Shown piece after piece: positions 5,097 through 59,170 of a stretch of DNA of 64,000 bases; the first letter of the stretch is position 1; each line of letters begins with the position of its first letter. The stretch comes from a virus (taxonomy: Duplodnaviria > Heunggongvirae > Uroviricota > Caudoviricetes), in IMG/VR virus record IMGVR_UViG_3300032053_000007; one strand, 5' to 3'. Both the position numbers and the translations under genes were made by a program. Under the pieces are notes generated by a model, which was given only the letters and a program-made list of their open reading frames with translations, made no database searches and had not been told where the DNA came from.

Positions 5097-5112
5097 TTAA
5101 TCAGTTGATTAA
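5097..5112. promoter_or_regulatory. TTAATCA-NN-TGATTAA palindrome (operator candidate)
   Basis: ttaatcagttgattaa, 22 nt upstream of box 5134. Confidence 0.55.
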
Positions 5113-13481: not shown

Positions 13482-13494
13482 ATACATTCTATAG

Positions 13495-15229: not shown

Positions 15230-15301
15230 GGTAAACAAAAACCTATAAGATGAACCGAAAGATTTATATATTAGTTAGAAGTATATAAGTTTGTGATTTC
15301 A

Positions 15302-15727: not shown

Positions 15728-15743
15728 TTAATCATATGATTAA
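15728..15743. promoter_or_regulatory. TTAATCA-NN-TGATTAA palindrome
   Basis: ttaatcatatgattaa. Confidence 0.5.
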
Positions 15744-16735: not shown

Positions 16736-16833
16736 ACAGAAAAGATATAGACTATCCTCTCATCTTTAGACGACTTCGCTGGTTTAAACGACTTGCTAAA
16801 GAATATCAGAAAGAAAAGGTGCAGTTCACATGA
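16732..16833 (+). CDS. VxFT-tail mini-protein (33 aa)
   Basis: ends EKVQFT; ovl at both ends. Confidence 0.5.
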   Translation: MNRKDIDYPLIFRRLRWFKRLAKEYQKEKVQFT

Positions 16834-17102
16834 CAATCATACTTAAAAAGAACTTCAAGAAATGTCCTATGTGCGGCTCACGAAATTTAGCCCCTCATCT
16901 TCATAGCCAACATACTGAAAAGGAAGTACCGTGGGTTCGTTGCGAAGATTGTACGGCAATGTTTGTTAGAAGTTGTTCAAGTAATTCCCCAACAGAATCT
17001 ATTGTTATTTGGAATCGTAGAGGAAATGGCACTAAAATTGAGCCTGAAAGCACTAGCGTCTTTGTAACGCCAGAAGACCCAGAGGTTGTGCATTTTACAT
17101 GA
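16830..17102 (+). CDS. Lar-like (restriction-alleviation family) zinc-ribbon protein
   Basis: KCPMCGS..VRCEDC..IVIWNRR pattern; ends EVVHFT. Confidence 0.5.
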   Translation: MTIILKKNFKKCPMCGSRNLAPHLHSQHTEKEVPWVRCEDCTAMFVRSCSSNSPTESIVIWNRRGNGTKIEPESTSVFVTPEDPEVVHFT

Positions 17103-17774: not shown

Positions 17775-17998
17775 AACAACTCAAAGTTTTGCATTATGAT
17801 AAAGATTGTGGTTTGGTTCGTTTGACTACGCGAGAACATAGGTCTATACATTCTAATATTTGTTTCGGTTGTGGATATAATGGAGCAATAAAATGGAATT
17901 CTTATAACAAAGTTGTTCAATGTCACAATTGCGGACAGATAATAGCTAAACCAGAAAGTCATCCAGAATTAGAACGAGAGGTAGTGCAATTTACATGA
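17771..17998 (+). CDS. zinc-ribbon VxFT-tail mini-protein
   Basis: CFGCG..CHNCG; ends EVVQFT. Confidence 0.6.
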   Translation: MKQLKVLHYDKDCGLVRLTTREHRSIHSNICFGCGYNGAIKWNSYNKVVQCHNCGQIIAKPESHPELEREVVQFT

Positions 17999-18210
17999 CT
18001 GAACTACTAATTATTGGAATGATAAGTACAATTTGTGGTCTAATTATTGCAATGGTATTAGAGGCAAAAAGACAAAAACGCAAAATGATAAAAAGAGTAA
18101 GAATATATATCAAAGACCGTAATAAAACTTTACGTCTTTCAAAATGGAAAAGAATTGCTACTGAATGGAGAGAAGAATTAAAGAGACCTGTAAAGGTGAA
18201 GTTTACATGA
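17995..18210 (+). CDS. N-terminal-TM VxFT-tail mini-protein
   Basis: hydrophobic N-terminus; ends VKVKFT. Confidence 0.6.
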   Translation: MTELLIIGMISTICGLIIAMVLEAKRQKRKMIKRVRIYIKDRNKTLRLSKWKRIATEWREELKRPVKVKFT

Positions 18211-20978: not shown

Positions 20979-20994
20979 TTAATCAACTGATTAA
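20979..20994. promoter_or_regulatory. TTAATCA-NN-TGATTAA palindrome
   Basis: ttaatcaactgattaa. Confidence 0.55.
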
Positions 20995-21311: not shown

Positions 21312-21327
21312 TTAATCAACTGATTAA
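21312..21327. promoter_or_regulatory. TTAATCA-NN-TGATTAA palindrome
   Basis: ttaatcaactgattaa. Confidence 0.55.
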
Positions 21328-25369: not shown

Positions 25370-25385
25370 TTAATCAGTTGATTAA
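25370..25385. promoter_or_regulatory. TTAATCA-NN-TGATTAA palindrome
   Basis: ttaatcagttgattaa. Confidence 0.55.
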
Positions 25386-25420: not shown

Positions 25421-25436
25421 TTAATCACCTGATTAA
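25421..25436. promoter_or_regulatory. TTAATCA-NN-TGATTAA palindrome
   Basis: ttaatcacctgattaa. Confidence 0.55.
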
Positions 25437-31197: not shown

Positions 31198-31213
31198 TTA
31201 ATCAGGTGTTTAA
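31198..31213. promoter_or_regulatory. degenerate TTAATCA-NN-TGATTAA palindrome
   Basis: ttaatcaggtgtttaa. Confidence 0.4.
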
Positions 31214-33388: not shown

Positions 33389-33404
33389 TTAATCAGTTGA
33401 TTAA
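33389..33404. promoter_or_regulatory. TTAATCA-NN-TGATTAA palindrome
   Basis: ttaatcagttgattaa. Confidence 0.55.
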
Positions 33405-33446: not shown

Positions 33447-33462
33447 TTAATCAACTGTTTAA
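33447..33462. promoter_or_regulatory. degenerate palindrome
   Basis: ttaatcaactgtttaa. Confidence 0.45.
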
Positions 33463-37108: not shown

Positions 37109-37318
37109 ATGGACTCCGAAGTTGATTTGATTATCGCCTACGAATCAGGCGAACTAGACGAACAGAAAACTCTGGAACTTTTCTCGATGCTAGTGAAAAA
37201 CGGACACGCTTGGAGTTTACAGGGAACCTACGGACGCATGGCTCACCAATTAATCGAAGCTGGCTACCTAGATAAACAGGGAAATATAACTCGAACATTC
37301 GAAGAGGACGAAGGTTAA
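37109..37318 (+). CDS. hypothetical protein
   Basis: trimmed to ATG 37109. Confidence 0.5.
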   Translation: MDSEVDLIIAYESGELDEQKTLELFSMLVKNGHAWSLQGTYGRMAHQLIEAGYLDKQGNITRTFEEDEG

Positions 37319-40567: not shown

Positions 40568-40773
40568 CAAACAAACTCGTTGATAAAGAAGAACTTCCAG
40601 ATTTTTGTCCCGTGTGCGGAGAAAAGAATAACGGAAAATGGGCGTTTCTTTGTATAAAATGTTGGATGGTTTTTGTCAAGTGGAGTCATGAAAAATATCC
40701 GAATGACATAATAATTTCAGACCATATTCCAGAATATTTAGCCAAACTCAAAGAGAAGGTAGAGTTCACTTGA
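40564..40773 (+). CDS. ZR-W family zinc-ribbon mini-protein
   Basis: trimmed to junction TTG; CPVCG..CIKCWMVF; ends EKVEFT. Confidence 0.6.
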   Translation: MTNKLVDKEELPDFCPVCGEKNNGKWAFLCIKCWMVFVKWSHEKYPNDIIISDHIPEYLAKLKEKVEFT

Positions 40774-41487: not shown

Positions 41488-41624
41488 CAGAAGAGAAAAT
41501 GATAGAATGTTTTAGATGTGGAAAACTTTGGTTCTGCAAACCCTTCGCTGGAAGTCGTGCACTTTTTTGTCCCGAATGTCTAAAACTATTGTATAAACAA
41601 AAAGAGAAAGTTCGGTTCGATTAG
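41484..41624 (+). CDS. zinc-ribbon VxFD-tail mini-protein (46 aa)
   Basis: CFRCGKLWFC..CPEC; ends EKVRFD; stop TAG, last gene of array. Confidence 0.55.
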   Translation: MTEEKMIECFRCGKLWFCKPFAGSRALFCPECLKLLYKQKEKVRFD

Positions 41625-41729
41625 TCCCCTACCCCTAGCTACATTTGACAGGTAAATAGACTAGGGAAAAAGACGTTCTGGATGCTAGGGCGAAGCCAAT
41701 GGGAACTGAAGCCTGAAGTCGGTGCTTTT

Positions 41730-41745
41730 TTAATCAGTTGATTAA
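41730..41745. promoter_or_regulatory. TTAATCA-NN-TGATTAA palindrome
   Basis: ttaatcagttgattaa. Confidence 0.55.
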
Positions 41746-41899
41746 AAGTCTGGGGAATACGTTGGGGGCTGGCAGAGGGCTTCACCATAAACCGAAATCT
41801 AATTGGGAAGAAAAAACGCCTATGTGCGTTATGTGACACTCAGGATTCTACTAAAAATTTAATTTTCGAGGGGACGGAAAGTTACACCGAAAGTGTGAC

Positions 41900-42031
41900 C
41901 TAGCCTTCGTCCTCTAGTGCTTCCTCAAGTTCTGACGGGTCGGGACAACCAACGGGTCGCCTGAAAGTTTTAACTACTTTTGCAAGAACAATTAAACCTA
42001 TTATGAAACCCAGAGTATCAAACGGAAACAT
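41900..42031 (-). CDS. small membrane protein (43 aa)
   Basis: MFPFDTLGFIIGLIVLAKVV..; ATG about 12 nt after TSS predicted from minus-strand cassette 42067-42099. Confidence 0.4.
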   Translation of the reverse strand: MFPFDTLGFIIGLIVLAKVVKTFRRPVGCPDPSELEEALEDEG

Positions 42032-42066
42032 ATTTGTGCCTCTTTGTGAATACTACAACACGGTAG

Positions 42067-42099
42067 CTTATAAATCTTTCCCTAAAAACGCCATGCTCA
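42067..42099 (-). promoter_or_regulatory. GAGCATGG-box/TATA promoter cassette (minus strand)
   Basis: reverse complement reads tGAGCATGGcgtTTTT..TTTATAAG; offset 24. Confidence 0.55.
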
Positions 42100-42164
42100 A
42101 TTTCCAGCACAGCTTTCACAATGGTCGCTTTTGCCAAACGGGACGCGGTGCGAGGCGCATTTAA

Positions 42165-42180
42165 TTAATCAGGTGATTAA
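42165..42180. promoter_or_regulatory. TTAATCA-NN-TGATTAA palindrome
   Basis: ttaatcaggtgattaa. Confidence 0.55.
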
Positions 42181-42230
42181 CTGCTTCACGCCCCTTCACG
42201 CCGAGGCACGATGCGAACTGTTGAGCTTAT

Positions 42231-42246
42231 TTAATCAAATGATTAA
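42231..42246. promoter_or_regulatory. TTAATCA-NN-TGATTAA palindrome
   Basis: ttaatcaaatgattaa. Confidence 0.5.
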
Positions 42247-42340
42247 TTTCAAAACTCGAAGCCTTTACATTCGAAGTCTGCGCGTTGCCGTTTTCCAAGA
42301 CTGATTTTCCAAAACGAACCCGAACGAAACCCAGATTCCA

Positions 42341-42520
42341 TAGGACTGATGGTCTTTTTAACATCGTTTCCATTGGTCGAAAAGCATTATTTGAGCCTCT
42401 TCGAACAAAAGAAGGACACTCGTTCAATATCGTTTATATATGTTCGAAATTATTGAACGATTTGCCCCGAAGAGAACGCTCAGGGGATGAAATTGAGAGT
42501 CGGGCATTATCCACAGTCCT
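42341..42520 (+). repeat. conserved 180-nt noncoding element, copy 1 (candidate structured RNA)
   Basis: collinear with 56347-56526: taggactgatg .. hairpin cgttcaat/attgaacg .. cgggcattatccacagtcct. Confidence 0.5.
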
Positions 42521-42629
42521 TTGGGGGACACTACTTCGGGGCACAGTTAAACTCTAGGTGTAATAAAAGTTTCGACCATGCCTTTGACCATCAACATTTA
42601 AGTCACTCAGAGTGCAACCTTTCACTTTT

Positions 42630-42645
42630 TTAAACAGTTGATTAA
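42630..42645. promoter_or_regulatory. palindrome (one mismatch)
   Basis: ttaaacagttgattaa, 7 nt upstream of box. Confidence 0.5.
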
Positions 42646-42651
42646 CTAAAA

Positions 42652-42684
42652 CGAGCATGGTCGTTCTGGGGAAACCTTTATAAG
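42652..42684 (+). promoter_or_regulatory. GAGCATGG-box/TATA promoter cassette
   Basis: cGAGCATGGtcgTTCT..TTTATAAG; offset 24; leader cgctggcatctata shared with 44919 cassette. Confidence 0.65.
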
Positions 42685-42714: not shown

Positions 42715-44442
42715 ATGACAAAGCAGAAACAAGCAAAGACGAACAACTTCTCTAAGATACTTGACGAGATGAGGAATCTTGCCATAGCAATTACGAAGGA
42801 CAAACGGATTCGTATCAAGTATATTCCAGAACAACCAACTTCTGCTTTCAATATGGAAAACTTTGAGATTTCTTTGAGTTTACAGAGTTATCCCGATTTC
42901 GTGAAAACATCGCCCCGTCTATTCCGAAAAATCCTAGACGGTGACATGGTTCACGAGTGCGGTCATCTGATTCTAACAAAACCGAATTGGGAATTTTTCA
43001 ACAATTGGACAACAAAAATCAAACGACAGAGAGGATTTTACAAGCTGGCTCACGAAGTTTGCAACATAGTTGAAGATAAGCGCGTGAATCATTTCATAAT
43101 TCTCAGATACAGGTTTGATGTCGGCAAGAGGCTACTTTTGGCGAATTTGATACTAAAAGACATGATAGACAACACAATTGAAAAGCCACAAATAGCCATG
43201 TCAACCATCTTACCGAAGGGCGAAAACTTAGGCGAAAACGAAATTCCAAACATGACAATTCAAGCTGGACAACAAGACGGGGTTTACATGGTTGCAATTT
43301 TGTGCAATGAAGGTCTATATGAGGCTAAATGCACAGAGTTATGGAACAAACTAAGCCCAGATGCTAGAAAGGACTGTGAAACAGCCCTTAAAGTGCTAGA
43401 GGGGACGAAATATCAACGTGTCAAACTCGACATAATAAGGTCTTGCCAAACGATTTATGAATTGGTAGCTAAACACTTGAACGCTGACTATACGACAAAG
43501 GAATATGTCGTTTCTAGAAGAGGGGGCAACGTAAAGGGCAAAATATCGGACAGACTTAGGCAATTACTAGAAAAAGAGGAAGAGCAAGAAAAGGCAGAAG
43601 AGGACAAGAAGAAACACCTAGAAGATTTGCAGAAAGGTTCGGGTGCTGGCGAAGGCACAGGCGAAGAGATTCCAGCCCCAGACCCAGATTTTGAGGCGTA
43701 TTCGAAACTTCTGGACGAATGCAAGCCTGAAATTTCCGAGCTATTGAATCAACTAAAGAAGAAAATGAAACCGAGAGTTCAACGGGACATTTTCCAGAAA
43801 CGCGGAAAAATGATGAGTCCAATTGTTCCACGCATCTACACAAACAGCTTTAGGGGAACCGTTCGCAATGTGTATCTGCGTACAACAACAAAATTTGAGA
43901 AGGAACAAGTCGCAATTCAATTTTGGTTCGATTTCTCAGGGTCAGTTAGTCGAATAGAGGCTGAAAAGATAACCACTATACTGAATGAGGTCTTTGGACA
44001 TTACGTTGACGATTACGGGTTCAGTATTGGGTGCTTTGGGGCAGATACCCAGAAAGTAAAGACTTTCTTTGAAACCTTCGAAAACACACGGGCAAGAATT
44101 GGAGCTATTTCGGTGAATGCTGGCGGTACTGAGGTTTCCGTTGGATTAGAGGCAAGCCTGAGAATGTTCAATACGATTAAAGGCGAACGCCGAAAGATTC
44201 TGGTCATTGCGTCCGATTTCTGCTTCTGTGGTGATGAAGAAACGAAAGCAGAGGAATTAATCGACCAATATGCGAAAGCTGGAATTGAATGTATCTTCAT
44301 AGGTTTCTGTGACTGTGAGAATGTAGAAACCTTCGCAAGCAAAGTGAAAAACTTGAAGTGCTCACGAACACGGATAAACCAAATATCCGAATTACCTCAG
44401 AGATTCCTAAACGTGTATCTAAACGTAGAAACCCAGAAGTGA
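42715..44442 (+). CDS. vWA-domain protein with N-terminal HExxH putative metallopeptidase domain
   Basis: MVHECGHLI; MIDAS-like FDFSGSVS; E/K-rich linker; architecture as in metallopeptidase-plus-VWA proteins partnered with MoxR ATPases. Confidence 0.65.
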   Translation: MTKQKQAKTNNFSKILDEMRNLAIAITKDKRIRIKYIPEQPTSAFNMENFEISLSLQSYPDFVKTSPRLFRKILDGDMVHECGHLILTKPNWEFFNNWTTKIKRQRGFYKLAHEVCNIVEDKRVNHFIILRYRFDVGKRLLLANLILKDMIDNTIEKPQIAMSTILPKGENLGENEIPNMTIQAGQQDGVYMVAILCNEGLYEAKCTELWNKLSPDARKDCETALKVLEGTKYQRVKLDIIRSCQTIYELVAKHLNADYTTKEYVVSRRGGNVKGKISDRLRQLLEKEEEQEKAEEDKKKHLEDLQKGSGAGEGTGEEIPAPDPDFEAYSKLLDECKPEISELLNQLKKKMKPRVQRDIFQKRGKMMSPIVPRIYTNSFRGTVRNVYLRTTTKFEKEQVAIQFWFDFSGSVSRIEAEKITTILNEVFGHYVDDYGFSIGCFGADTQKVKTFFETFENTRARIGAISVNAGGTEVSVGLEASLRMFNTIKGERRKILVIASDFCFCGDEETKAEELIDQYAKAGIECIFIGFCDCENVETFASKVKNLKCSRTRINQISELPQRFLNVYLNVETQK

Positions 44443-44896: not shown

Positions 44897-44912
44897 TTAA
44901 TCAGTTGATTAA
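44897..44912. promoter_or_regulatory. TTAATCA-NN-TGATTAA palindrome
   Basis: ttaatcagttgattaa, 7 nt upstream of box. Confidence 0.55.
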
Positions 44913-44918
44913 CTAAAA

Positions 44919-44951
44919 TGAACATGGTCTTTCTAAGCAAACATTTAAATA
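44919..44951 (+). promoter_or_regulatory. GAGCATGG-box/TATA promoter cassette
   Basis: tGAACATGGtctTTCT..TTTAAATA; offset 24. Confidence 0.65.
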
Positions 44952-44985: not shown

Positions 44986-45873
44986 ATGAACTCAGAATTT
45001 GAAAAGATTCATGCAAAGGTCGAATCAGCACTTGAAGGTGCTGGCATCTACGTCAAAGGCATCGAGTTCGTGGACGAACATGGCTACATTGAAAAGTCAA
45101 GAGCGATTCTTGAAATTGTCGGCAACCTTAGATTAGTCGGCGAAACGGGGACGGGCAAAACAACTCTTGTTCACAAGTTGGCTGAATTGTTAGAGGTTCC
45201 GCTTTTTGAAATTGTCTTAACACGGGACGTGACAAAGTGGGATTTGCTGGCATGTGATACTCTGAAAGCTGGAAGCACAGAAACAAGAGATGGAATCATA
45301 ATTCAATGGTTGAACAGCGAGAAAGGTCTGCTTTACATAGACGGGTTCAACTATGCAGAACCATCGATAATTTCACTTCTGGAATCATTGGCAGACTTTA
45401 GGGGAAACGTGTATATTCCAGAATACAAGAAGCAATTCACACGGACAGCACAGCACTATCTCGTTATCAGCTATAACCCCTCAGAAAAATCGGGTTACTC
45501 TGGGACATTCATCGAGAACATTGCAACCATTAGACGATTTGAAGGTCTGATAATCGAATACCTTAGCCCCCAGAAAGAACGCGAATTGGTAAAGAAGTTC
45601 TCTGGAAACTATGACTTTTCTGCGAAGTTCGTAGAAATTGCCAAAAAGACGCGAACCGAATACGAGAACGGAAAACTTAGAACGCCCCTCACGACAGGCA
45701 ACCTAATAAACTACGGCAAACTCTACAAAGCGAAGATGTCCGAAGAGGACATAATCGATATAGCAAGTTCGCTTTACACCGCAAGAGAAGAGCGCAATTT
45801 ATTTAGGTCGTTCTTCGAAGATAGCTCTGAGATAGACGTAGAAAAGTTGAAAAAGAAAGAAGAGGATACCTAA
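44986..45873 (+). CDS. AAA+ ATPase, MoxR/CbbQ/CobS-like (AAA_5 type)
   Basis: Walker A GETGTGKTT; LLYIDGFNYA Walker B region (Gly where Glu is expected); IRRFEG like the MoxR DRF motif. Confidence 0.7.
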   Translation: MNSEFEKIHAKVESALEGAGIYVKGIEFVDEHGYIEKSRAILEIVGNLRLVGETGTGKTTLVHKLAELLEVPLFEIVLTRDVTKWDLLACDTLKAGSTETRDGIIIQWLNSEKGLLYIDGFNYAEPSIISLLESLADFRGNVYIPEYKKQFTRTAQHYLVISYNPSEKSGYSGTFIENIATIRRFEGLIIEYLSPQKERELVKKFSGNYDFSAKFVEIAKKTRTEYENGKLRTPLTTGNLINYGKLYKAKMSEEDIIDIASSLYTAREERNLFRSFFEDSSEIDVEKLKKKEEDT

Positions 45874-46890: not shown

Positions 46891-46946
46891 TTAATCAACC
46901 ATAAGACTTAAATACTTAATTAACCATCTATTAATTAGTGTTTCAA

Positions 46947-47300
46947 ATGAAATGTCAAGACTGTGAAAAAGAAACAAATACAAAATCTCAAAGATGTCCT
47001 GAATGCCAAAAGATATATCACCAAAAATGGCTAGAAGAATTAAAACTCTGGGCGATTCAAAAGTTAGGCGATAAGTGTTTTCATTGCGATAAACATTTTG
47101 ATTCTTGTGTTTATGATTTTCACCATGAAGGAAACGATACATGGCTTCGTTGCAATGAACAACAAAAAAATGCGAATCGAAGAGTAAAAGAATTGGTTCG
47201 TTGGAGAAGGGCAGAGAAAATTCCAGAGGACGTTCGATTAGTCTGCGCGAATTGTCACAGAATTATTAGTCATAAATCGTTTAATCACCTGATTAAGTAA
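46947..47300 (+). CDS. HNH endonuclease
   Basis: CFHCDK..DFHHEGN..LVCANCHRIISH; 3-prime end encodes palindrome 47281 (FNHLIK). Confidence 0.65.
   Translation: MKCQDCEKETNTKSQRCPECQKIYHQKWLEELKLWAIQKLGDKCFHCDKHFDSCVYDFHHEGNDTWLRCNEQQKNANRRVKELVRWRRAEKIPEDVRLVCANCHRIISHKSFNHLIK
47281..47296. promoter_or_regulatory. TTAATCA-NN-TGATTAA palindrome
   Basis: ttaatcacctgattaa inside end of HNH CDS, 7 nt upstream of box. Confidence 0.55.
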
Positions 47301-47302: not shown

Positions 47303-47335
47303 TGAGAATGGAGATTCCTAGCAAACGTTTATATA
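47303..47335 (+). promoter_or_regulatory. GAGCATGG-box/TATA promoter cassette
   Basis: tGAGAATGGagaTTCC..TTTATATA; offset 24. Confidence 0.6.
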
Positions 47336-47352: not shown

Positions 47353-47368
47353 TTAATCAAGTGATTAA
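47353..47368. promoter_or_regulatory. TTAATCA-NN-TGATTAA palindrome on predicted TSS
   Basis: ttaatcaagtgattaa centred about 27 nt after TATA centre. Confidence 0.55.
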
Positions 47369-47369: not shown

Positions 47370-48059
47370 ATGGCTGACCAAAAAACGACAAACAAACTCA
47401 TCATAGACGAAAAGGCTCTTGAATCGTTAGGACTACACGGCGAAACGATTTATACAATAGAGTATGACCTTTACAGCGAGAAATATCTGACGGACGCGGA
47501 AAAGAAAAAGTTGACAAAAGAACAACGGGACGCAAACACGCGATTCAACAAACTTGCGCGAATTTTCAGAAACGCAATTGTGTTCGCTCTGAAATTCAAG
47601 CTGGACGCTGTGAAACATCTCGAAAGCAGTTGGCTTCTGGACGGCGATAAGCTGGACTTAGCTGTTGCAGAAATTGAAGAGATAAAGGCAAAGGCAAAGA
47701 GCAAAGGATTTGAGGACATCGACAGACGCATAAAAATCATTCCGATTTTCACGACCCCAGAAGGATTCGAAAACTACAAAGACAAGAAAGCAGAGTTCAT
47801 TCTTAACTTCATAATGGAACACGTCAAGATGGCAGAGGACGGGTTAAAAGACAAACGCATGGCTCAGAGCACACTTTGGAGATGTCGAAAAGCAGTTGAG
47901 ATTTGCAATTCACACATCGAAAGCATGAAGGGACACGAGCGATATAACGAAATGTTAGACACCGTGAATATGCTGGACGAATTGAACGGGCAATGCGAAA
48001 GTTTTCTCTGTGACCAAAAGGCAGAAAAGGCAAAGAAGAACAAGAAAGAAGAGGACTGA
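47370..48059 (+). CDS. hypothetical helical protein
   Basis: trimmed to ATG 47370; K/E-rich. Confidence 0.55.
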   Translation: MADQKTTNKLIIDEKALESLGLHGETIYTIEYDLYSEKYLTDAEKKKLTKEQRDANTRFNKLARIFRNAIVFALKFKLDAVKHLESSWLLDGDKLDLAVAEIEEIKAKAKSKGFEDIDRRIKIIPIFTTPEGFENYKDKKAEFILNFIMEHVKMAEDGLKDKRMAQSTLWRCRKAVEICNSHIESMKGHERYNEMLDTVNMLDELNGQCESFLCDQKAEKAKKNKKEED

Positions 48060-49021: not shown

Positions 49022-49266
49022 CTGATTTGAAGAACGTAGCTCGAAAACTTGGGCATATTGGATTTGGAGTTCGAATTGAGGGGGACAAACTAATCGTTTA
49101 TGAGGGATGGATGAAAGATTGTCTGCTCATTCTGGGCGTTAAATCCTATAAGGACGGGCTGGCGAAGAGGGCGAAGCAATTAGAGGCTGAATATGGGCTT
49201 AAACTCGAAAGTTGTAAGATACGGAACAGTATTTCGAGAATGGTCTTTCTGGAACAACCTTTATAA
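49018..49266 (+). CDS. hypothetical protein
   Basis: track ORF; reads through cassette 49235 and stops in its TATA (tttaTAAg). Confidence 0.5.
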   Translation: MTDLKNVARKLGHIGFGVRIEGDKLIVYEGWMKDCLLILGVKSYKDGLAKRAKQLEAEYGLKLESCKIRNSISRMVFLEQPL

Positions 49267-49267
49267 G
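49235..49267 (+). promoter_or_regulatory. GAGCATGG-box/TATA promoter cassette
   Basis: cGAGAATGGtctTTCT..TTTATAAG; offset 24. Confidence 0.6.
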
Positions 49268-49284: not shown

Positions 49285-49300
49285 TTAATCAGGTGATTAA
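49285..49300. promoter_or_regulatory. TTAATCA-NN-TGATTAA palindrome on predicted TSS
   Basis: ttaatcaggtgattaa. Confidence 0.55.
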
Positions 49301-50259: not shown

Positions 50260-50462
50260 CAACAATAGACGATAACGGTTATATCGAGTACGATTATGAG
50301 GATTTGTGTACGGAATGCAAGATGCACGATAAATGTCACGAAAACAGTATTGATTATGATGAAATTGATAAATGTTGTCAAGAACTTAATTCTCAAATGA
50401 AAGCGCGAGGAACCAAACTATATAAAACCCCAGAGCCAAAAGAGAAGGTGTTATTCACATGA
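50256..50462 (+). CDS. acidic Cys-rich VxFT-tail mini-protein
   Basis: trimmed to junction ATG; CTECKMHDKC; ends EKVLFT. Confidence 0.6.
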   Translation: MTTIDDNGYIEYDYEDLCTECKMHDKCHENSIDYDEIDKCCQELNSQMKARGTKLYKTPEPKEKVLFT

Positions 50463-50605
50463 CGGGCGTTCTCGTTATACCGTGTTCAAAATGTGGCAGA
50501 CCTCTCAATATTCCCGTTAAAAACTATGCGGATGCAAAGAAGATAGGTTCAAGAATGTGTAAGCAATGCAACAACAAAGGAAGAGAAAAGGTCTGTTTCA
50601 CATGA
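50459..50605 (+). CDS. zinc-ribbon VxFT-tail mini-protein (48 aa)
   Basis: CSKCG..CKQC; ends EKVCFT. Confidence 0.55.
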   Translation: MTGVLVIPCSKCGRPLNIPVKNYADAKKIGSRMCKQCNNKGREKVCFT

Positions 50606-51948: not shown

Positions 51949-52275
51949 ATGATTCAGATGCGATTAAAGTCTATTGGAAATTTTGACGTTGAAATAAAAG
52001 AGAAAACTGAATCACAAAAAAAGAGACAACGAGAACAAATAAAAATGTGGGGAAAAAAACACCCAGAGCGAACTAAAATGAAGAATGCAAAACGGCGAGA
52101 ATTAGGGTTTGACCCTTTTAATGGGAGATTTATTGGCTCTGTTGCTCATCATATAGATTTTGAATGTGTTATCTATATTCCCAGAGAACTTCATATTTCT
52201 ATTCATCATTGCGTTTGGACAGGTCAGGGTATGGCAGAAATAAATGATAAAGTTTTCGAATGGCTTACCACATAA
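51949..52275 (+). CDS. HNH-like protein (weak)
   Basis: VAHHIDFE..LHISIHH; TATA 51917; alternative ATG 51958. Confidence 0.4.
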   Translation: MIQMRLKSIGNFDVEIKEKTESQKKRQREQIKMWGKKHPERTKMKNAKRRELGFDPFNGRFIGSVAHHIDFECVIYIPRELHISIHHCVWTGQGMAEINDKVFEWLTT

Positions 52276-52305
52276 ACGTGGCGACAAGTGGTTTTTAGCG
52301 AATTT

Positions 52306-52321
52306 TTAATCAGTTGATTAA
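52306..52321. promoter_or_regulatory. TTAATCA-NN-TGATTAA palindrome
   Basis: ttaatcagttgattaa, 3 nt upstream of box. Confidence 0.55.
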
Positions 52322-52323
52322 CT

Positions 52324-52356
52324 CGAACATGGACGTTCTAGGCGAAACTTTATATA
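52324..52356 (+). promoter_or_regulatory. GAGCATGG-box/TATA promoter cassette
   Basis: cGAACATGGacgTTCT..TTTATATA; offset 24. Confidence 0.6.
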
Positions 52357-52370
52357 GCGCGCTGTACTGA

Positions 52371-52386
52371 TTAATCAGTTGATTAA
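52371..52386. promoter_or_regulatory. TTAATCA-NN-TGATTAA palindrome on predicted TSS
   Basis: ttaatcagttgattaa. Confidence 0.55.
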
Positions 52387-52398
52387 TTGGTGAACGCG

Positions 52399-52782
52399 AT
52401 GAACACGGAGAAAATTTACTTCGATAACGCTGAACTCGATGGAACAGCTTTGGCTTCTGGGACTATTTCAAGATATGATACTAAAATTACCAAAGTTATC
52501 TATTCCATTGACGGTATAATCGCTGATGATATTGGTGCTGAGTTGTTCGTTCACGAATTCAATGAAGTTGCAATTTATGAAGTATTGAATCGAATTCTTC
52601 CATACGAAAGTTTATCAGCTATTTCTCACAACTTGAACGCTGAAAGCGATAACGAGTATGTAGAAGAGAGAAACCTTTTACATGGTTATGTAAAGAGCGA
52701 TAGACTTCCAGCTATTGACAAAGTTTTCACACAACAAGAAACAGACGAGTTTAGGGCAAGAGCAAACAAACCTAGACGATAA
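52399..52782 (+). CDS. hypothetical protein (paralog of 401..802)
   Basis: trimmed to ATG 52399 after SD TGGTGA; FVHEFNEVAIYEVL. Confidence 0.55.
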   Translation: MNTEKIYFDNAELDGTALASGTISRYDTKITKVIYSIDGIIADDIGAELFVHEFNEVAIYEVLNRILPYESLSAISHNLNAESDNEYVEERNLLHGYVKSDRLPAIDKVFTQQETDEFRARANKPRR

Positions 52783-52783
52783 A

Positions 52784-52816
52784 CGAGCATGGACTTTTTC
52801 CCGAAACATTTATATA
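52784..52816 (+). promoter_or_regulatory. GAGCATGG-box/TATA promoter cassette
   Basis: cGAGCATGGactTTTT..TTTATATA; offset 24. Confidence 0.6.
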
Positions 52817-54435: not shown

Positions 54436-54450
54436 CCTTCTCTTTTTTTG
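54436..54450 (+). terminator. oligo-T terminator
   Basis: ccttctctttttttg. Confidence 0.5.
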
Positions 54451-54481
54451 TGCATGGACGTTCTACCACAATCTTTATATA
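54449..54481 (+). promoter_or_regulatory. GAGCATGG-box/TATA promoter cassette (variant box)
   Basis: tGTGCATGGacgTTCT..TTTATATA; offset 24; about 105-nt leader. Confidence 0.55.
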
Positions 54482-54608
54482 GCTGTTTGATTATTGTATT
54501 ACTCGTATGAGCACGGGAACAAGGTTTCCAAACTACGTCCTTAGCTGACGAGTGATGGACGCTTATTGGAGAATCGTCCGTGTTCCGCGCTAATCTAAGT
54601 GGTCTAAA

Positions 54609-54746
54609 ATGATAACACTAAAAACCGTGATTAAGAAAGTAAAAGAGAACGCTGGCATAATCATGGCATTTGCCCCGATAGCCTTTTTCGTAGTTGTAAT
54701 AGCTCTAATACTTTCTGGAATACTCAAAGTTCACATTGAATTTTGA
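54609..54746 (+). CDS. small TM protein (45 aa)
   Basis: hydrophobic core; TGA opens cassette 54744. Confidence 0.45.
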   Translation: MITLKTVIKKVKENAGIIMAFAPIAFFVVVIALILSGILKVHIEF

Positions 54747-54776
54747 GCATGGACGTTCTTAGGAAACCTTTATATA
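54744..54776 (+). promoter_or_regulatory. GAGCATGG-box/TATA promoter cassette
   Basis: tGAGCATGGacgTTCT..TTTATATA; offset 24. Confidence 0.65.
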
Positions 54777-54809
54777 GCTCGGTGTTGTTGTTATTATCAA
54801 GTGAACAAG

Positions 54810-55028
54810 ATGGTCAAGCAAAAAATAGGATTCTTTAAGTGGCTCTACACAAGAACCATCGAAGTCATACGTGACCCTCTAACCCAAAGTATAGGGGCAA
54901 TTCTGGGTGGAATTTTCATTTTCGCTTTTTCTGCTACTTTTGGTGCGCTATTCTCGCCTCTTCTATTTTTGGGTGTCCCTGTTGGAATATTGGTACTACT
55001 CTACGGAGTCTATAAAGTCGAACACTAG
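54810..55028 (+). CDS. small 2-TM membrane protein
   Basis: trimmed to ATG 54810. Confidence 0.55.
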   Translation: MVKQKIGFFKWLYTRTIEVIRDPLTQSIGAILGGIFIFAFSATFGALFSPLLFLGVPVGILVLLYGVYKVEH

Positions 55029-55031
55029 ATT

Positions 55032-55064
55032 CGAGCATGGTCTTTCTACCACAACCTTTATATA
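55032..55064 (+). promoter_or_regulatory. GAGCATGG-box/TATA promoter cassette
   Basis: cGAGCATGGtctTTCT..TTTATATA; offset 24; no CDS downstream. Confidence 0.6.
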
Positions 55065-55089
55065 CCCGTTTGACATACTACTCTATCAA

Positions 55090-55147
55090 GGGCGAAGGGA
55101 TATTGTTCCATTTTTTCACCGTCCTTTCTCGCGCTTTCCCTTCGCCC
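55090..55147 (+). other. 11-bp perfect hairpin at 5-prime end of a noncoding transcript
   Basis: gggcgaaggga (55090) / tcccttcgccc (55137), followed by C/T-rich tract to about 55330. Confidence 0.4.
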
Positions 55148-55335
55148 GTTCTACTCATTCCTTCTAACCTCTCTAACCCTCTACAAACTTAGACGATTTC
55201 ACTAACACTTTTTGTTAAAGACCTCAGAACCCCCGACCCAGAGAGCCTTTACACTTTTTGATTTCACCACGTCAACCGAAACTGACCCAAGTTCTGCCCA
55301 AGCCGTCTTGAGCCTCTCTCACGAAACCCAGATTT

Positions 55336-55351
55336 TTAATCAACTGATTAA
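55336..55351. promoter_or_regulatory. TTAATCA-NN-TGATTAA palindrome
   Basis: ttaatcaactgattaa. Confidence 0.55.
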
Positions 55352-55672
55352 CGAATCGTAGCTCGTAACGAGGCTGTGCACCCTTTACCCCGACCTCTAA
55401 CCATATAACACAAATTGTTAAGCAAATTCCCGAACCCCAGAGAACCCACGTCCGACCCCTAACCCAGACCCTCTAACGACCTCTAATCACTAACCCCCCC
55501 AAGAGAGCCATATACCCCCAAAAGTGGAGTCCATGCTTAAAAGAAATGCTCGATAAAAGATACTGATGACCTTTACATACGTAAAGGAAAGGGTTGTCAT
55601 ACGTAAAGGGTCTATGGAGTGGAATGTTGGCATACGACAACGGCGTGATTGACATAGTGCTGTAGCTCTATT

Positions 55673-55688
55673 TTAAACAGGTGATTAA
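55673..55688. promoter_or_regulatory. palindrome (one mismatch)
   Basis: ttaaacaggtgattaa. Confidence 0.5.
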
Positions 55689-55813
55689 CGACCCCATTAT
55701 AAAGAAGTCCCCCCCCTCTAGCTCCCCTGAATGCCAAAACAAGCCTAGAAAAAAGACGTTTTGGCAAACGGTGACTTTATTATCCGAAAGGCTCGCGGAA
55801 CTGTGGAGAATTT

Positions 55814-55829
55814 TTAATCAGGTGATTAA
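55814..55829. promoter_or_regulatory. TTAATCA-NN-TGATTAA palindrome
   Basis: ttaatcaggtgattaa. Confidence 0.55.
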
Positions 55830-56192
55830 GCAGGGCGAACCGACAGGTAGAAGGGACGGCGTGAACTCTCTGACCAGAAAATAATTGGAACCAAAAAAAC
55901 GCCTATGTGCGCTTATGTGATATTCTCAGTTGCATTCTATGGACAATTTCCTGTTAACCGAGGCGTTACCCCAAAAGTTGCACTTTTTGTTACACTAGAA
56001 GTTGTGCTAGACCAAAACGTTTATATACCCCCTATTTAAGCGTATCGCCGATAGCCTTATATAGTAGCTATTTAAACCTATCGGTTGCTTATATATGTGC
56101 AAACTTAGCAAAATTCGAACCATAAAGTACAACTCTCTATTATCACGTCCTTCGAACCATATACCGCAACTCTTATATAGATGCCATACTTA

Positions 56193-56225
56193 CTTATAAA
56201 CGTTTGCCCAGAACGACCATGCTCG
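56193..56225 (-). promoter_or_regulatory. GAGCATGG-box/TATA promoter cassette (minus strand)
   Basis: reverse complement reads cGAGCATGGtcgTTCT..TTTATAAG; offset 24; no convincing CDS downstream. Confidence 0.5.
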
Positions 56226-56346
56226 ATTTAGAGGCTGATTCAGGGCGGAAACAACTAACGGAGCACACTTACAGATTCGAACTCGCGCCGATGACTAGCT
56301 CTGAGACTGATTAACTAAAACGAACGTCATCGAACGGTGAATTCAT

Positions 56347-56526
56347 TAGGACTGATGACAATTTTGACGTTCTAACATTACCCCGAACTCCACGATTTAG
56401 CCTTATTCGACTAAACGGGGCGTACTCGCTCAATATCGTTGAGCAAATATAAAGGGAATTGAGCGTATTGCTCCGAACGACCCGCTCACAGGTTGATTTT
56501 AGAAAACGGGCATTATCCACAGTCCT
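56347..56526 (+). repeat. conserved 180-nt noncoding element, copy 2
   Basis: same landmarks and spacing as 42341-42520; hairpin cgctcaat/attgagcg shows a compensatory T-A to C-G change. Confidence 0.5.
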
Positions 56527-56792
56527 ACCCGCCATTGCTGGCGCGAACGGGCTTCGAACTTGGTTGTACTTTGAGTTACATTGAATATACATCATGCGTT
56601 ACTATGTAATATACGCTTAACGCGAACAACTCCAACTCTCTCAAACATACGTTCTCAGCGCACTATATATACGTTTGCTTTTTCCTGTACGACACATCTA
56701 CAAGTCAATGGTCGAACTGTTGGTTTAAGCTACACTTTAATGGAAACGTTTATAAGAGAGGGTGCGAACGTTATTCTAAGGACGTGAAACAC

Positions 56793-57287
56793 TTGAACGA
56801 TAAGGACGAATTGACACGACTTGAAAACTTAGCGCAAAAACTAGGTTTTACCGTGATATATAATTTAACCCTTAGCTGGAATCATTCGAAGGTTTCCTTT
56901 TATCCATGTCGAAGAATCCTTATCGGAACTAAGAACTATTCACCAAATTCAAATATCGGTTATGGAACCATACCTGATAAGGTTAAAGCGTTAATTCTGA
57001 ATCACGAGCTAGGGCATATTGTCGTATATGAAACGCTTTACCCTAACATGGATTTAGCTGATTTTTGTCTCTCAAATGATTCAAAATTCTTGGTACAACA
57101 AGAGATGTACGCATGGAAAACCGCAATAAATGAATCGCTCGATGATAATTCTGACCCTCTAGTGTTGGAATTGATACAAGAATCGATAAACCAATACATT
57201 TATTGTGAGTATATCGGAACATGCACAATAGAATCTCAGCAAGAACTACAGCAAAAAATAATTACTAAGTTTACACGTACAAAATAG
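56793..57287 (+). CDS. small HExxH metallopeptidase-like protein
   Basis: LNHELGHIVVYE; TTG 56793 six nt after AAGGACGTG (track used GTG 56784). Confidence 0.55.
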   Translation: MNDKDELTRLENLAQKLGFTVIYNLTLSWNHSKVSFYPCRRILIGTKNYSPNSNIGYGTIPDKVKALILNHELGHIVVYETLYPNMDLADFCLSNDSKFLVQQEMYAWKTAINESLDDNSDPLVLELIQESINQYIYCEYIGTCTIESQQELQQKIITKFTRTK

Positions 57288-58830: not shown

Positions 58831-58846
58831 TTAATCAACTGATTAA
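58831..58846. promoter_or_regulatory. TTAATCA-NN-TGATTAA palindrome
   Basis: ttaatcaactgattaa, 20 nt upstream of TATA 58867. Confidence 0.55.
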
Positions 58847-58909: not shown

Positions 58910-59170
58910 ATGGCAAGAATCTTTAAAGTGAATGAAACCACAGAAATACTCTGTGAATTTGTGAGCACAAGAAGCGGTTTTAGACATGATGCAAGGCTGT
59001 TCAAAAATGGCAATGAATACGAAAAGGCTAAAGTATGCTACGTAAACAGAACATGGGAGAAATTTGACTTCGAAACCGTCATACATAAACTGCTAGAAAA
59101 GACGGACGCTTTGACCGAAACAGAAAAAGAGCAATTCAGAACCGAATTAAACAACAAATACGGCTATTAA
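58910..59170 (+). CDS. hypothetical protein
   Basis: TATA 58867, AAGGACGTG SD. Confidence 0.6.
   Translation: MARIFKVNETTEILCEFVSTRSGFRHDARLFKNGNEYEKAKVCYVNRTWEKFDFETVIHKLLEKTDALTETEKEQFRTELNNKYGY

What the first reader, a model, noticed from the sequence alone, without database searches (positions are those of the whole stretch)
52306..52386. A 16-bp palindrome TTAATCA-NN-TGATTAA (23 copies) positioned as an operator, upstream of the box or centred on the TSS, with two promoters bracketed by both
Perfect or near-perfect copies occur at 5097, 15728, 20979, 21312, 25370, 25421, 31198, 33389, 33447, 41730, 42165, 42231, 42630, 44897, 47281, 47353, 49285, 52306, 52371, 55336, 55673, 55814 and 58831.

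Their positions relative to promoters fall into three groups:
- At the promoters of 47370 and 52399, one copy lies 3-7 nt upstream of the GAGCATGG box and a second sits on the predicted +1. This geometry suits a clamp or a repression loop.
- At 49235, a single copy sits on +1.
- At the vWA (42652) and AAA+ (44919) promoters, one copy lies 7 nt upstream of the box.

Many other copies cluster in the noncoding hubs. This is a classic dimeric-repressor site and defines a regulon. The cognate regulator is not identifiable from sequence.
Basis: partly seen in the sequence, partly recalled or inferred. Interest (0 to 1): 0.72.

Follow-up and report, generated by a model that had tools for sequence, protein, structure and literature searches.

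The report
Conserved 16-bp operator of archaeal virus
A 16-base palindrome (TTAATCA-NN-TGATTAA) is repeated 24 times between the genes of a large uncultivated, probably archaeal, virus, is kept at the same promoter positions in its distant relatives, and is almost certainly the docking site of one still-unidentified gene regulator.

Summary
The window holds 20 perfect and 4 one-mismatch copies of TTAATCA-NN-TGATTAA, against 0 expected by chance. Twenty-two of the 24 copies lie outside called genes (P~1e-10).

The promoter geometry is as described:
- Copies end 7 nt (3 nt at 52306) upstream of the GAGCATGG box at 42653, 44920, 47304 and 52325.
- Copies lie over the predicted start site at 47353, 49285 and 52371.

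The strongest new evidence is comparative. The same palindrome is abundant in relatives whose vWA protein is only 85% to 44% identical. In these relatives it falls in the same two position classes relative to the TATA box. Together with the TATA box it is the only invariant block in orthologous upstream regions.

One lineage (L003) instead uses a different 16-bp palindrome, TTAAGAAGCTTCTTAA.

The element looks archaeal: BRE/TATA-like promoters, no sigma-70 or intrinsic-terminator enrichment, Alba in a relative, and a relative binned in an archaeal MAG.

The best reading is an operator for a dimeric regulator. It probably represses at the start site. Its effect from upstream sites is unknown. 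DNA looping is not supported, because paired sites show no helical phasing. This is a new member of a known kind.

The parts
5097..5112 (.). palindrome TTAATCAGTTGATTAA, 22 nt upstream of the GAGCATGG box at 5135
15728..15743 (.). palindrome (centre TA), 48 nt after the HNH gene 15293-15679 and 103 nt before the box at 15847
20979..20994 (.). palindrome in noncoding hub 20.6-21.5 kb
21312..21327 (.). palindrome in the same hub, 66 nt before the box at 21394
25370..25385 (.). palindrome, first of a pair 51 bp apart in hub 24.9-25.8 kb; preceded by T-runs
   Evidence: (D18)
25421..25436 (.). palindrome, second of the pair
31198..31213 (.). one-mismatch copy (TTAATCAGGTGTTTAA), intergenic
33389..33404 (.). 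palindrome, first of a pair 58 bp apart upstream of promoter 33508
33447..33462 (.). one-mismatch copy, second of the pair, 45 nt before the box at 33508
41730..41745 (.). palindrome in the middle of a ~190-nt repeated hub element, between convergent units
42165..42180 (.). palindrome, first of a pair 66 bp apart, upstream of the minus-strand promoter at 42098
42231..42246 (.). palindrome, second of the pair
42630..42645 (.). one-mismatch copy, 7 nt upstream of the box of the vWA promoter; centre -39.5 from the TATA start
42653..42684 (+). core promoter (GAGCATGG box to TTTATAAG) of the vWA gene 42715-44442
44897..44912 (.). palindrome 7 nt upstream of the box of the AAA+ (MoxR-like) promoter; invariant in six lineages
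44920..44951 (+). core promoter of the AAA+ gene 44986-45873
47281..47296 (.). palindrome 7 nt upstream of the box; overlaps the last codons of the HNH gene 46938-47300
47304..47335 (+). core promoter of the conserved 229/232-aa gene (ATG 47370)
47353..47368 (.). palindrome between the TATA box and the ATG (centre +32.5 from the TATA start, about the predicted start site); its right half doubles as a GTGAT ribosome-binding-like sequence
49236..49267 (+). core promoter followed by a long untranslated stretch
49285..49300 (.). palindrome, centre +32.5 from the TATA start
52306..52321 (.). palindrome 3 nt upstream of the box; 30 nt after the HNH gene 51949-52275; preceded by T-runs
52325..52356 (+). 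core promoter of the 127-aa gene (ATG 52399); the whole cassette 52245-52802 is absent from variant L009
52371..52386 (.). palindrome, centre +29.5 from the TATA start; its flanks extend it to a 12-bp stem
55336..55351 (.). palindrome in hub 54.4-56.8 kb; kept in variant L009 while the flanks diverge
55673..55688 (.). one-mismatch copy; perfect in variant L009
55814..55829 (.). palindrome in the second copy of the ~190-nt hub element, inside a hyper-conserved noncoding stretch
58831..58846 (.). palindrome 20 nt upstream of a TATA box (58867) that has no GAGCATGG box; gene 58910-59170

Best explanation
The palindrome is the operator of one sequence-specific, two-fold symmetric (dimeric) DNA-binding protein. 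This protein controls a subset of the transcription units of a large, uncultivated, most likely archaeal virus.

Shown:
- The site is an over-represented, intergenic 7-2-7 inverted repeat.
- It occupies two conserved position classes relative to the TATA-like box. In one class the centre is about 34-45 bp upstream of the TATA start, just upstream of the virus-specific GAGCATGG element. In the other the centre is 16-33 bp downstream of the TATA start, between the TATA box and the start codon.
- It is conserved across relatives far more strongly than its surroundings.

Inferred:
- Copies between the TATA box and the start site block recruitment of RNA polymerase, which gives repression.
- Copies upstream of the promoter either help recruit the basal factors (activation), as for archaeal regulators whose effect depends on position, or mark and insulate the start of an independently controlled unit that follows a T-rich terminator.
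- Promoters with both copies (the 229-aa gene and the 127-aa gene) would be switched on and then shut off by the same protein.

The binding protein is not identified. It may be encoded by the virus outside the stretch available here, or by the host.
For: Abundance and location.
- 20 perfect and 4 one-mismatch copies, against 0 / 1.1 expected.
- 22 of 24 lie outside genes, P~1e-10.

Position.
- In the window, centres lie at exactly -39.5 (three promoters), -35.5, +32.5 (twice) and +29.5 from the TATA start.
- Pooled over the window and five relatives, about 19 sites fall at -33.5 to -44.5 and 11 sites at +16.5 to +32.5.

Conservation.
- The same palindrome occurs at 5-14 perfect copies per ~10-22 kb in L131, L132, L133, L135, L137, L138 and L136. 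Their vWA identity to the window falls from 85% to 44%.
- In alignments of the regions upstream of the AAA+ gene and the 229-aa gene, the invariant columns are essentially the palindrome and the TATA box.
- The 229-aa gene keeps a bracketing pair in four lineages.
- Variant L009 keeps four copies, and restores one to perfect, in a hub that is only ~83% identical.

Specificity.
- L003 has replaced the motif by another 16-bp palindrome, TTAAGAAGCTTCTTAA. It has about 10 copies, with 4 exact cores against 0.05 expected. This is expected if the site and its binding protein evolve together.

DNA level, not RNA.
- The RNA hairpin is weak: -2.7 to -3.4 kcal/mol, z about -0.3.

Precedent.
- Three unrelated cellular contigs carry a pair of the same palindrome upstream of a TetR-family regulator gene.
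- The E. coli TetR-family protein RutR binds the same 7-2-7 layout, TTGACCAnnTGGTCAA (PMC2475637).
- Position-dependent repression and activation by one archaeal regulator is documented for TrmBL1 (PMC4706686).

Archaeal setting.
- Sigma-70 promoters and intrinsic terminators are not enriched.
- About 29 promoters have a GCAAAnnTTTATATAGG core followed by an A+T-rich stretch.
- One gene starts exactly 31 nt after its TATA start (33563).
- A relative encodes Alba.
- A relative lies on a contig of an 'uncultured archaeon' MAG.
Against: - No DNA-binding protein was found. Pfam and PHROGs on all plus-strand ORFs of the window gave no HTH, RHH or wHTH domain.
- The DUF7417 protein folds into a small helical bundle with no structural match in the PDB.
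- The model of the 59-aa ORF has low confidence and does not show a strand-helix-helix (RHH) layout.
- About half of the copies are not within 90 bp of a recognisable TATA box. Some sit between convergent units in the hubs.
- The start sites are predicted, not mapped. The TATA-to-ATG distance of 38-50 nt puts the Shine-Dalgarno-like sequences at the very 5' end of the predicted mRNAs. A start site directly after the TATA box, as for a phage-type polymerase, is therefore not excluded. In that case the downstream copies would lie at about +15 to +33.
- The spacing between the upstream copy and the box differs between lineages by 6-9 bp. This argues against a strict face-of-helix activation mechanism.
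Confidence: 0.72

Rival explanations
1. The sites belong to replication or partition machinery (parS-like centromere or origin-recognition boxes) bound by a ParB-like or initiator protein, not to a transcription regulator.
For: - It is a 16-bp palindrome, the same length as parS.
- Copies cluster in long noncoding hubs (41.5-42.7 and 54.4-56.8 kb). One of these contains a hyper-conserved noncoding stretch.
- Cumulative GC skew peaks near 52-54 kb.
- A 93-aa ParB_N protein is encoded 2 kb left of the window.
- The sites are confined to one part of the genome: none in the 10 kb to the left or the 12 kb to the right.
Against: - The fixed distances to the TATA box and to the GAGCATGG box, conserved across lineages, would not be expected.
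- Copies lie between the TATA box and the start codon of particular orthologous genes.
- The ParB_N protein is too short to carry the usual DNA-binding domain, and it was not seen near the sites in relatives.
- A KorB-like double role (partition protein acting as global repressor) would still make the site an operator.
Confidence: 0.08
2. The palindrome is a boundary element for transcription (part of a terminator or roadblock/insulator), acting at the ends of units rather than on initiation.
For: - In the window many copies are preceded by a G+C-rich stretch and one or two T-runs (family D18).
- They lie where independent units begin. Most other genes overlap by ATGA/TTGA without any gap.
- Hub copies 41730 and 55814 sit between convergent units.
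Against: - The hairpin is no more stable than shuffled sequence.
- The T-run is not kept in relatives; L137, for example, has AAAAGA-palindrome-TCTTTT.
- Copies that lie after the TATA box cannot be terminators of the upstream unit.
- A protein roadblock would again be an operator-type site.
Confidence: 0.07
3. The palindrome is the recognition or landing site of the element's free-standing homing endonucleases (HNH family), and its copies mark present or potential insertion points.
For: - All three HNH genes of the window end within 57 nt of a palindrome centre (Fisher p = 9e-6).
- 14 of 24 HNH genes in palindrome-bearing relatives do the same.
- A cassette next to one HNH gene is absent from variant L009.
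Against: - 21 of 24 copies have no endonuclease gene next to them.
- Perfect copies persist beside the HNH genes, so the genome would cut itself.
- In L133 an unrelated LAGLIDADG gene occupies the same slot before the AAA+ promoter. This fits selfish genes settling in the few free intergenic gaps rather than one enzyme recognising the palindrome.
- The idea does not explain the fixed distance to the TATA box, nor the copies over start sites.
Confidence: 0.05

Closest known systems
TrmB/TrmBL1 and the Thermococcales glycolytic motif (TATCAC-N5-GTGATA) in Pyrococcus/Thermococcus
   Same: One palindromic site occurs at many promoters. Copies downstream of the TATA box block polymerase recruitment, and copies upstream of BRE/TATA activate (PMC4706686). 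Here the same two position classes are seen relative to a BRE/TATA-like core.
   Different: The sequence and spacing differ (7-2-7 rather than 6-5-6). No TrmB-family protein was found in the accessible DNA. This is a viral rather than a cellular regulon. An extra virus-specific element (GAGCATGG) lies between the upstream site and BRE/TATA. The effect of binding is untested.
TetR-family operators, e.g. the RutR box TTGACCAnnTGGTCAA of E. coli
   Same: The layout is identical: a 16-bp, 7-2-7 inverted repeat with 5 of 7 bases shared per half-site (PMC2475637). In three cellular metagenome contigs a pair of exactly this palindrome, 66 bp apart, lies upstream of a TetR-family gene.
   Different: No TetR-like ORF exists in any of the viral loci fetched. 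The cellular loci are unrelated to the virus. The resemblance shows what kind of protein could bind, not which one does.
Phage lambda-type operators (OR/OL) and looping repressors
   Same: Multiple copies of one palindromic operator overlap or flank promoters. Some promoters are bracketed by two copies.
   Different: Paired copies show no helical phasing. No repressor gene lies beside the operators. The promoters are not sigma-70 type.
KorB (ParB family) and its 12 OB palindromes on plasmid RK2 (recalled from general knowledge, not checked in a paper here)
   Same: One palindrome is scattered over a mobile element at different distances from promoters, giving global control. Some copies are promoter-adjacent and others are far away.
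   Different: Only a 93-aa ParB_N protein is seen, and it lies outside the window. No evidence links it to the sites.

Membership tests
Operator of a dimeric transcription regulator (generic) | Two-fold symmetric inverted repeat of 12-20 bp | tested here: met
   TTAATCA-NN-TGATTAA. The 14 specified bases are invariant in 20 copies.
Operator of a dimeric transcription regulator (generic) | Over-represented and confined to intergenic, promoter-proximal DNA | tested here: met
   0 expected against 20 found. 22 of 24 lie outside genes, P~1e-10.
Operator of a dimeric transcription regulator (generic) | Fixed position relative to core promoter elements | tested here: met
   Centres cluster at -33.5 to -44.5 and at +16.5 to +32.5 from the TATA start in six genomes.
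Operator of a dimeric transcription regulator (generic) | Conserved in relatives at orthologous promoters while the flanks diverge | tested here: met
   Alignments A3 and A4; counts in relatives.
Operator of a dimeric transcription regulator (generic) | A cognate DNA-binding protein exists and binds the site | tested here: inconclusive
   No HTH, RHH or wHTH domain by Pfam or PHROGs. Two structure predictions were negative or low confidence. Only about 85 kb of an element of at least 152 kb was accessible. Binding itself cannot be tested here.
TetR-family operator | 16-bp 7-2-7 palindrome | tested here: met
   Same layout as the RutR box (PMC2475637).
TetR-family operator | TetR-family regulator encoded in the element, usually next to an operator | tested here: not met
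   phmmer with the TetR protein of L141 finds nothing in 4052 ORFs of the viral loci. Pfam found no TetR_N domain.
Archaeal position-dependent regulator site (TrmBL1/TGM type) | Sites both upstream of BRE/TATA and between the TATA box and the start site | tested here: met
Archaeal position-dependent regulator site (TrmBL1/TGM type) | Host transcription machinery is archaeal (BRE/TATA promoter, start about 25-31 nt after the TATA box) | tested here: inconclusive
   Promoter consensus and A+T-rich stretch. No sigma-70 enrichment. Alba in relative L003. A relative on an archaeal MAG contig. Start sites are not mapped.
Looping operator pair (lambda/lac/gal type) | Paired sites separated by an integral number of helical turns | tested here: not met
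   24 neighbouring pairs; Rayleigh p 0.68-1.0 for periods 10-11 bp.
parS / ParB centromere | Full-length ParB with an HTH encoded nearby; sites independent of promoter geometry | tested here: not met
   Only a 93-aa ParB_N protein in the left flank. The sites keep fixed distances to the TATA box.
Intrinsic terminator / RNA hairpin | Stable stem-loop, more stable than shuffled sequence, followed by a T-run | tested here: not met
   -2.7 to -3.4 kcal/mol, z -0.1 to -0.8 for three of four sites. The T-run lies before the palindrome, not after it.
Homing-endonuclease target site | Intact site absent beside the endonuclease gene; the site is tied to one enzyme family | tested here: not met
   Perfect copies lie next to all three HNH genes. 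A LAGLIDADG gene sits in the same slot in L133.

The most novel reading that the evidence does not exclude
A single master regulator, with a recognition sequence essentially frozen across a whole uncultivated family of large (150 kb or more) archaeal viruses from peat and sediment, switches a conserved set of units on from an upstream site and off from a start-site copy. These units include the MoxR ATPase / 229-aa / vWA module and a minus-strand membrane-peptide gene. Lineages can escape cross-regulation by changing both operator and regulator, as L003 has done with TTAAGAAGCTTCTTAA. That would be an immunity-like specificity system in archaeal viruses.
Probability: 0.3. Interest if true: 0.65.

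Novelty: new member of a known kind. Interest (0 to 1): 0.5.

Why it matters
Gene regulation in archaeal viruses is known from a handful of cultivated hyperthermophile and halophile viruses. This finding gives a clean, statistically unambiguous cis-element with a defined target list in an uncultivated, almost wholly unannotated virus family.

- It offers a direct handle for experiments. DNA-affinity capture, or DAP-seq with synthesised ORFs, could name the regulator.
- It divides about 190 unknown genes into regulatory classes.
- The switch of palindrome in one lineage gives a built-in comparison for finding the regulator by covariation.

Conceptually it is an ordinary operator.

Tried and rejected
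- GenBank phage searches, near and distant, found no match.
- Rfam at gathering thresholds found no family in the window. No tRNAs were found.
- A scan of IMG/VR for palindrome plus box gave 0 hits. A scan for the bare palindrome gave only single chance hits and was uninformative.
- Regulator hunt:
  - Pfam on all plus-strand ORFs, as four concatenated chunks.
  - Ten candidates at relaxed E-values.
  - PHROGs on the 31.5-64 kb half.
  - None of these gave a DNA-binding domain.
- DUF7417 protein 37109-37318: a confident model (pLDDT 86) of a small helical bundle, but no Foldseek match in the PDB (E > 3). Rejected as a candidate.
Its model has pLDDT 68, with one long helix followed by strands and no strand-helix-helix (RHH) layout. 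Not supported.
- The 229/232-aa protein is present in all 11 genomes compared and sits under a double operator. It looks like part of the MoxR-vWA module and has no DNA-binding signature. It was not modelled, because no homologue search was left to build an alignment.
- RHH-looking ORFs next to palindrome pairs in unrelated elements (L168, L155) have no Pfam support and no homologues in the virus.
- Looping was rejected on phasing.
- An RNA hairpin was rejected on energy.
- A MITE or other mobile repeat was rejected: outside the 16 bp, and outside one 190-nt hub element present twice, the copies share no flanks.

Full report
THE OBSERVATION. An exact search for TTAATCANNTGATTAA finds 20 copies in the 64-kb window, where 100 dinucleotide-preserving shuffles give none. 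Allowing mismatches adds four one-mismatch copies (31198, 33447, 42630, 55673) and nothing else: 24 matches against 1.1 expected. A perfect copy at 28830, overlapping the stop codon of a KaiC-like ATPase gene, was missed. The 14 specified bases carry nearly all the information. The two central bases vary (GT 8, AC 5, GG 5, and others). The only flank preference in this genome is a short T-run on the 5' side. No other palindrome is over-represented in the window.

THE ELEMENT.
- The window has 37% G+C, and nearly all genes lie on the plus strand.
- It has no DNA match among GenBank phages.
- Exact-protein look-ups place it on metagenome contigs of 86 and 152 kb.
- Very few proteins have Pfam or PHROG hits. 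Those that do are two glycosyltransferases, an RNA ligase, a KaiC-like ATPase, an SPFH protein, a MoxR-type AAA+ ATPase and HNH endonucleases.
- The 575-aa protein at 42715-44442 is vWA-type: its homologues hit Pfam VWA, although the window copy itself had no Pfam hit.
- The left flank encodes sugar-modifying enzymes. The right flank encodes ribonucleotide reductase and dCMP deaminase.

EVIDENCE FOR AN ARCHAEAL HOST.
- Sigma-70-like promoters and intrinsic terminators are not enriched: 33 against 38.7 expected, and 13 against 13.9.
- About 29 copies of a long promoter-like repeat, TTGAGCATGG-N5-TTCT-N5-AA-NN-TTTATATAGGACG, are present. Its AAnnTTTATATA part looks like an archaeal BRE/TATA element, and an A+T-rich stretch follows 18-27 nt after the TATA start.
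- One gene (33563) starts exactly 31 nt after its TATA start, as a leaderless archaeal mRNA would.
- Relative L003 encodes Alba (Pfam E = 3e-17).
- The only hit in 185,579 reference genomes is a contig of an 'uncultured archaeon' MAG.
- This setting is inferred, not proven. The TATA-to-ATG distance of 38-50 nt puts the Shine-Dalgarno-like sequences at the very 5' end of the predicted transcripts. A start directly after the TATA box therefore cannot be excluded.

GEOMETRY IN THE WINDOW.
- Only 2 of the 24 copies lie wholly inside called genes, although 72% of the window is coding (P = 1.2e-10).
- Copies 42630, 44897 and 47281 end exactly 7 nt before the box, with centres 39.5 nt before the TATA start. 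Copy 52306 ends 3 nt before its box.
- Copies 47353, 49285 and 52371 have centres 32.5, 32.5 and 29.5 nt after the TATA start. This is on the predicted start site in the archaeal reading. In any reading they lie between the TATA box and the start codon.
- Promoters with an upstream palindrome are the ones preceded by a G+C-rich stretch and T-runs (family D18). At most other promoters the box overlaps the stop codon of the preceding gene.
- The remaining copies lie in four long noncoding hubs.

COMPARATIVE EVIDENCE.
- The vWA protein has 77 homologues (95% to 31% identity) on large contigs from peat and sediment metagenomes.
- I fetched 10 kb on each side of nine of them and of the MAG contig. 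The same palindrome is abundant in relatives at the following vWA identity:
  - L131 (85%): 8 perfect copies.
  - L132 (74%): 10 perfect copies, always with centre AT.
  - L133 (68%): 5 perfect copies and 10 with one mismatch.
  - L135 (59%): 10 perfect copies.
  - L137 (52%): 13 perfect copies.
  - L138 (45%): 7 perfect copies.
  - L136 (44%): 5 perfect copies in 9.9 kb.
- L139 (42%) has a degenerate form that still precedes a CATGG box and a TATA box.
- Pooled over six genomes, the centres fall into two classes relative to the TATA start: -33.5 to -44.5 (about 19 sites) and +16.5 to +32.5 (11 sites).
- In alignments of the DNA upstream of the AAA+ gene (six lineages) and of the 229-aa gene (five lineages), the invariant columns are essentially the palindrome and the TATA box. 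The GAGCATGG box itself drifts and is absent from L136.
- The 229-aa gene keeps a palindrome on each side of its promoter in four lineages.
- The ~90%-identical variant L009 keeps all four hub copies, in DNA that is otherwise ~83% identical and rearranged.
- A metagenome scan for two palindromes 51-81 bp apart returned 40 loci, 19 of which share proteins with this family.

A LINEAGE WITH ANOTHER SITE. L003 (vWA 51% identical) has no TTAATCA copy. Instead it has about ten copies of a different 16-bp palindrome, TTAAGAAGCTTCTTAA. Four exact TTAAG-N6-CTTAA cores are found against 0.05 expected. A change of site in one lineage is what co-evolution of an operator and its binding protein would produce. 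It could also reflect a different host.

WHAT THE SITE IS NOT.
- As RNA the palindrome folds no better than shuffled sequence: -2.7 to -3.4 kcal/mol. Only 52371 folds well, because its flanks happen to extend the stem.
- Neighbouring copies prefer a spacing of 51-81 bp (16 of 24 pairs), about the length of a promoter. They show no 10-11 bp periodicity (Rayleigh p 0.7-1.0). A fixed repression loop is therefore not supported.
- The copies share no flanks beyond one ~190-nt hub element that occurs twice. They are therefore not ends of a mobile repeat.

THE HOMING-ENDONUCLEASE ASSOCIATION. All three HNH genes of the window end within 57 nt of a palindrome centre (Fisher p = 9e-6). So do 14 of 24 HNH genes in relatives that carry the palindrome. 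In L133, however, an unrelated LAGLIDADG gene occupies the same slot. Perfect sites persist beside the HNH genes, and 21 of 24 sites have no such neighbour. I read this as selfish genes settling in the few free gaps at unit boundaries, not as the palindrome being their target.

THE REGULATOR.
- None could be named. Pfam and PHROGs found no DNA-binding domain.
- The only protein families present in all 11 genomes compared are the vWA protein, the AAA+ ATPase and the 229-aa protein. These look like one functional module.
- The DUF7417 protein gives a confident helical model with no match in the PDB.
Its model has low confidence and does not show a strand-helix-helix (RHH) layout.
- Only about 85 kb of an element of at least 152 kb could be read, so a virus-encoded regulator elsewhere, or a host protein, remains possible.
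- Three cellular contigs unrelated to the virus carry a pair of exactly this palindrome upstream of a TetR-family gene. The 7-2-7 layout matches the RutR box TTGACCAnnTGGTCAA (PMC2475637). A helix-turn-helix dimer is therefore the most natural kind of binder.

MECHANISM.
- Shown: the sequence, its abundance, its positions and its conservation.
- Inferred: a dimer binds the site.
- Inferred: copies between the TATA box and the start codon repress by excluding the polymerase.
- Inferred: upstream copies either activate, as TrmBL1 does from sites upstream of BRE/TATA (PMC4706686), or mark insulated, separately controlled units.
- Inferred: promoters with both copies could be turned on and then off by the same protein.

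VERDICT. The operator reading is well supported. 'Repressor' holds at best for a subset of sites, and looping is not supported. This is a new member of a known kind, and its value lies in opening an uncharacterised virus family to experiment.

Noticed in passing
window, e.g. 16798-16834, 17972-18001, 40736-40773, 50427-50463 (dozens of sites): Most small genes are joined by a conserved ~21-nt junction, GARAAGGTGCAATTCAC(A/T)TGA. It comprises a Shine-Dalgarno-like AAGGTG, an 8-nt spacer and an overlapping ATGA/TTGA stop-start. As a result very many proteins end in ...E(K/R)V(Q/E)FT. The same ending is seen in relative L003. This looks like a translational coupling signal fixed at the nucleotide level.
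   Followed up: partly
window, ~29 sites such as 961, 3077, 25764, 42653, 54745; minus strand at 42098 and 56224: A promoter-like repeat of ~45 nt, TTGAGCATGG-N5-TTCT-N5-AA-NN-TTTATATAGGACG-NTG, followed by an A+T-rich stretch. The GAGCATGG part is specific to the closer relatives and is missing from L136. It may be the site of a second, virus-specific factor.
   Followed up: partly
window 41620-42650 and 54440-56800: Two paralogous ~1-2 kb noncoding hubs. Each has a minus-strand GAGCATGG promoter and a minus-strand hairpin plus T7 terminator (41830-41808 and 55914-55890). Each also has a shared ~190-nt element with the palindrome at its centre (41662-41840 and 55745-55920) and shared blocks such as GGGCATTATCCACAGTCCT. 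Window 55689-55900 is almost identical in variant L009 although its flanks are ~83% identical. Rfam finds nothing. These may be ncRNAs or an origin.
   Followed up: partly
window 41900-42031, minus strand: A 43-aa hydrophobic peptide (MFPFDTLGFIIGLIVLAKVV...) is encoded on the minus strand of the hub upstream of the vWA gene. Homologues sit in the same place in L132 and in the metagenome loci L166 and L180, downstream of palindrome pairs. The layout (small membrane peptide, convergent transcripts) recalls a type I toxin-antitoxin or a holin-like gene.
   Followed up: partly
window 15293-15679, 46938-47300, 51949-52275; L133 12820-13347: Free-standing HNH endonuclease genes (29 family members in six genomes) end just before palindromes. 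In L133 a LAGLIDADG gene sits in the same slot between the vWA and AAA+ genes. Several vWA homologues (P0005, P0020, P0059) carry Pfam intein and LAGLIDADG domains, and P0011 (920 aa) is similarly enlarged, though no Pfam domain is recorded for it.
   Followed up: partly
window 52245-52802 versus L009 1933-1958: The whole cassette terminator-palindrome-promoter-palindrome-127-aa gene is absent from the ~93%-identical variant L009. There the HNH gene runs straight into the next promoter.
   Followed up: partly
L003 (IMGVR_UViG_3300009034_000042), sites 67, 351, 673, 947, 1099, 1768, 8426, 11149, 11180; Alba gene 13247-13528 minus strand: This relative uses a different 16-bp palindrome, TTAAGAAGCTTCTTAA (about 10 copies, six of them in 1.8 kb upstream of the AAA+ gene). 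It also encodes an Alba chromatin protein.
   Followed up: partly
L141 8525-8606, L146 2163-2244 (PJEL010000042.1), L174 6120-6201: In cellular, non-viral contigs of 43-51% G+C, two copies of the very same palindrome 66 bp apart lie in the region upstream of a TetR-family regulator gene. Its closest solved structure is 3gzi (E = 2e-41). This is presumably its own operator pair.
   Followed up: partly
window 47370-48059 and homologues in all 11 genomes compared: A 213-232-aa protein always accompanies the MoxR-type AAA+ ATPase and the vWA protein. In the more distant lineages the three genes are adjacent. It has conserved blocks IEYDL, LKFKLxAxKHLESSW, IIPIxTT and STLWRCKKA and matches no known family. 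The vWA protein has an invariant N-terminal HExxH motif.
   Followed up: partly
window 16-41 kb and 48-52 kb: Large paralogous expansions of very small cysteine-rich proteins: 8-Cys types such as MKCKNCKKEFNCKQSCDAK..., and 4-Cys zinc-ribbon types followed by W..F helices. Several small HExxH/HEFxE proteins are also present.
   Followed up: no
L004 1-9922 (10 kb left of the window) and L007 16560-19437 (right of the window): The left flank holds a glycan-biosynthesis cluster: SDR, hexapeptide transferase, an Anp1-like glycosyltransferase, asparagine synthase, UDP-GlcNAc 2-epimerase and UDP-glucose dehydrogenase. It also holds a 93-aa ParB_N protein and a trypsin-like protease. The right flank holds dCMP deaminase, the ribonucleotide reductase large subunit and another HNH gene. 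None of these regions contains the palindrome.
   Followed up: no
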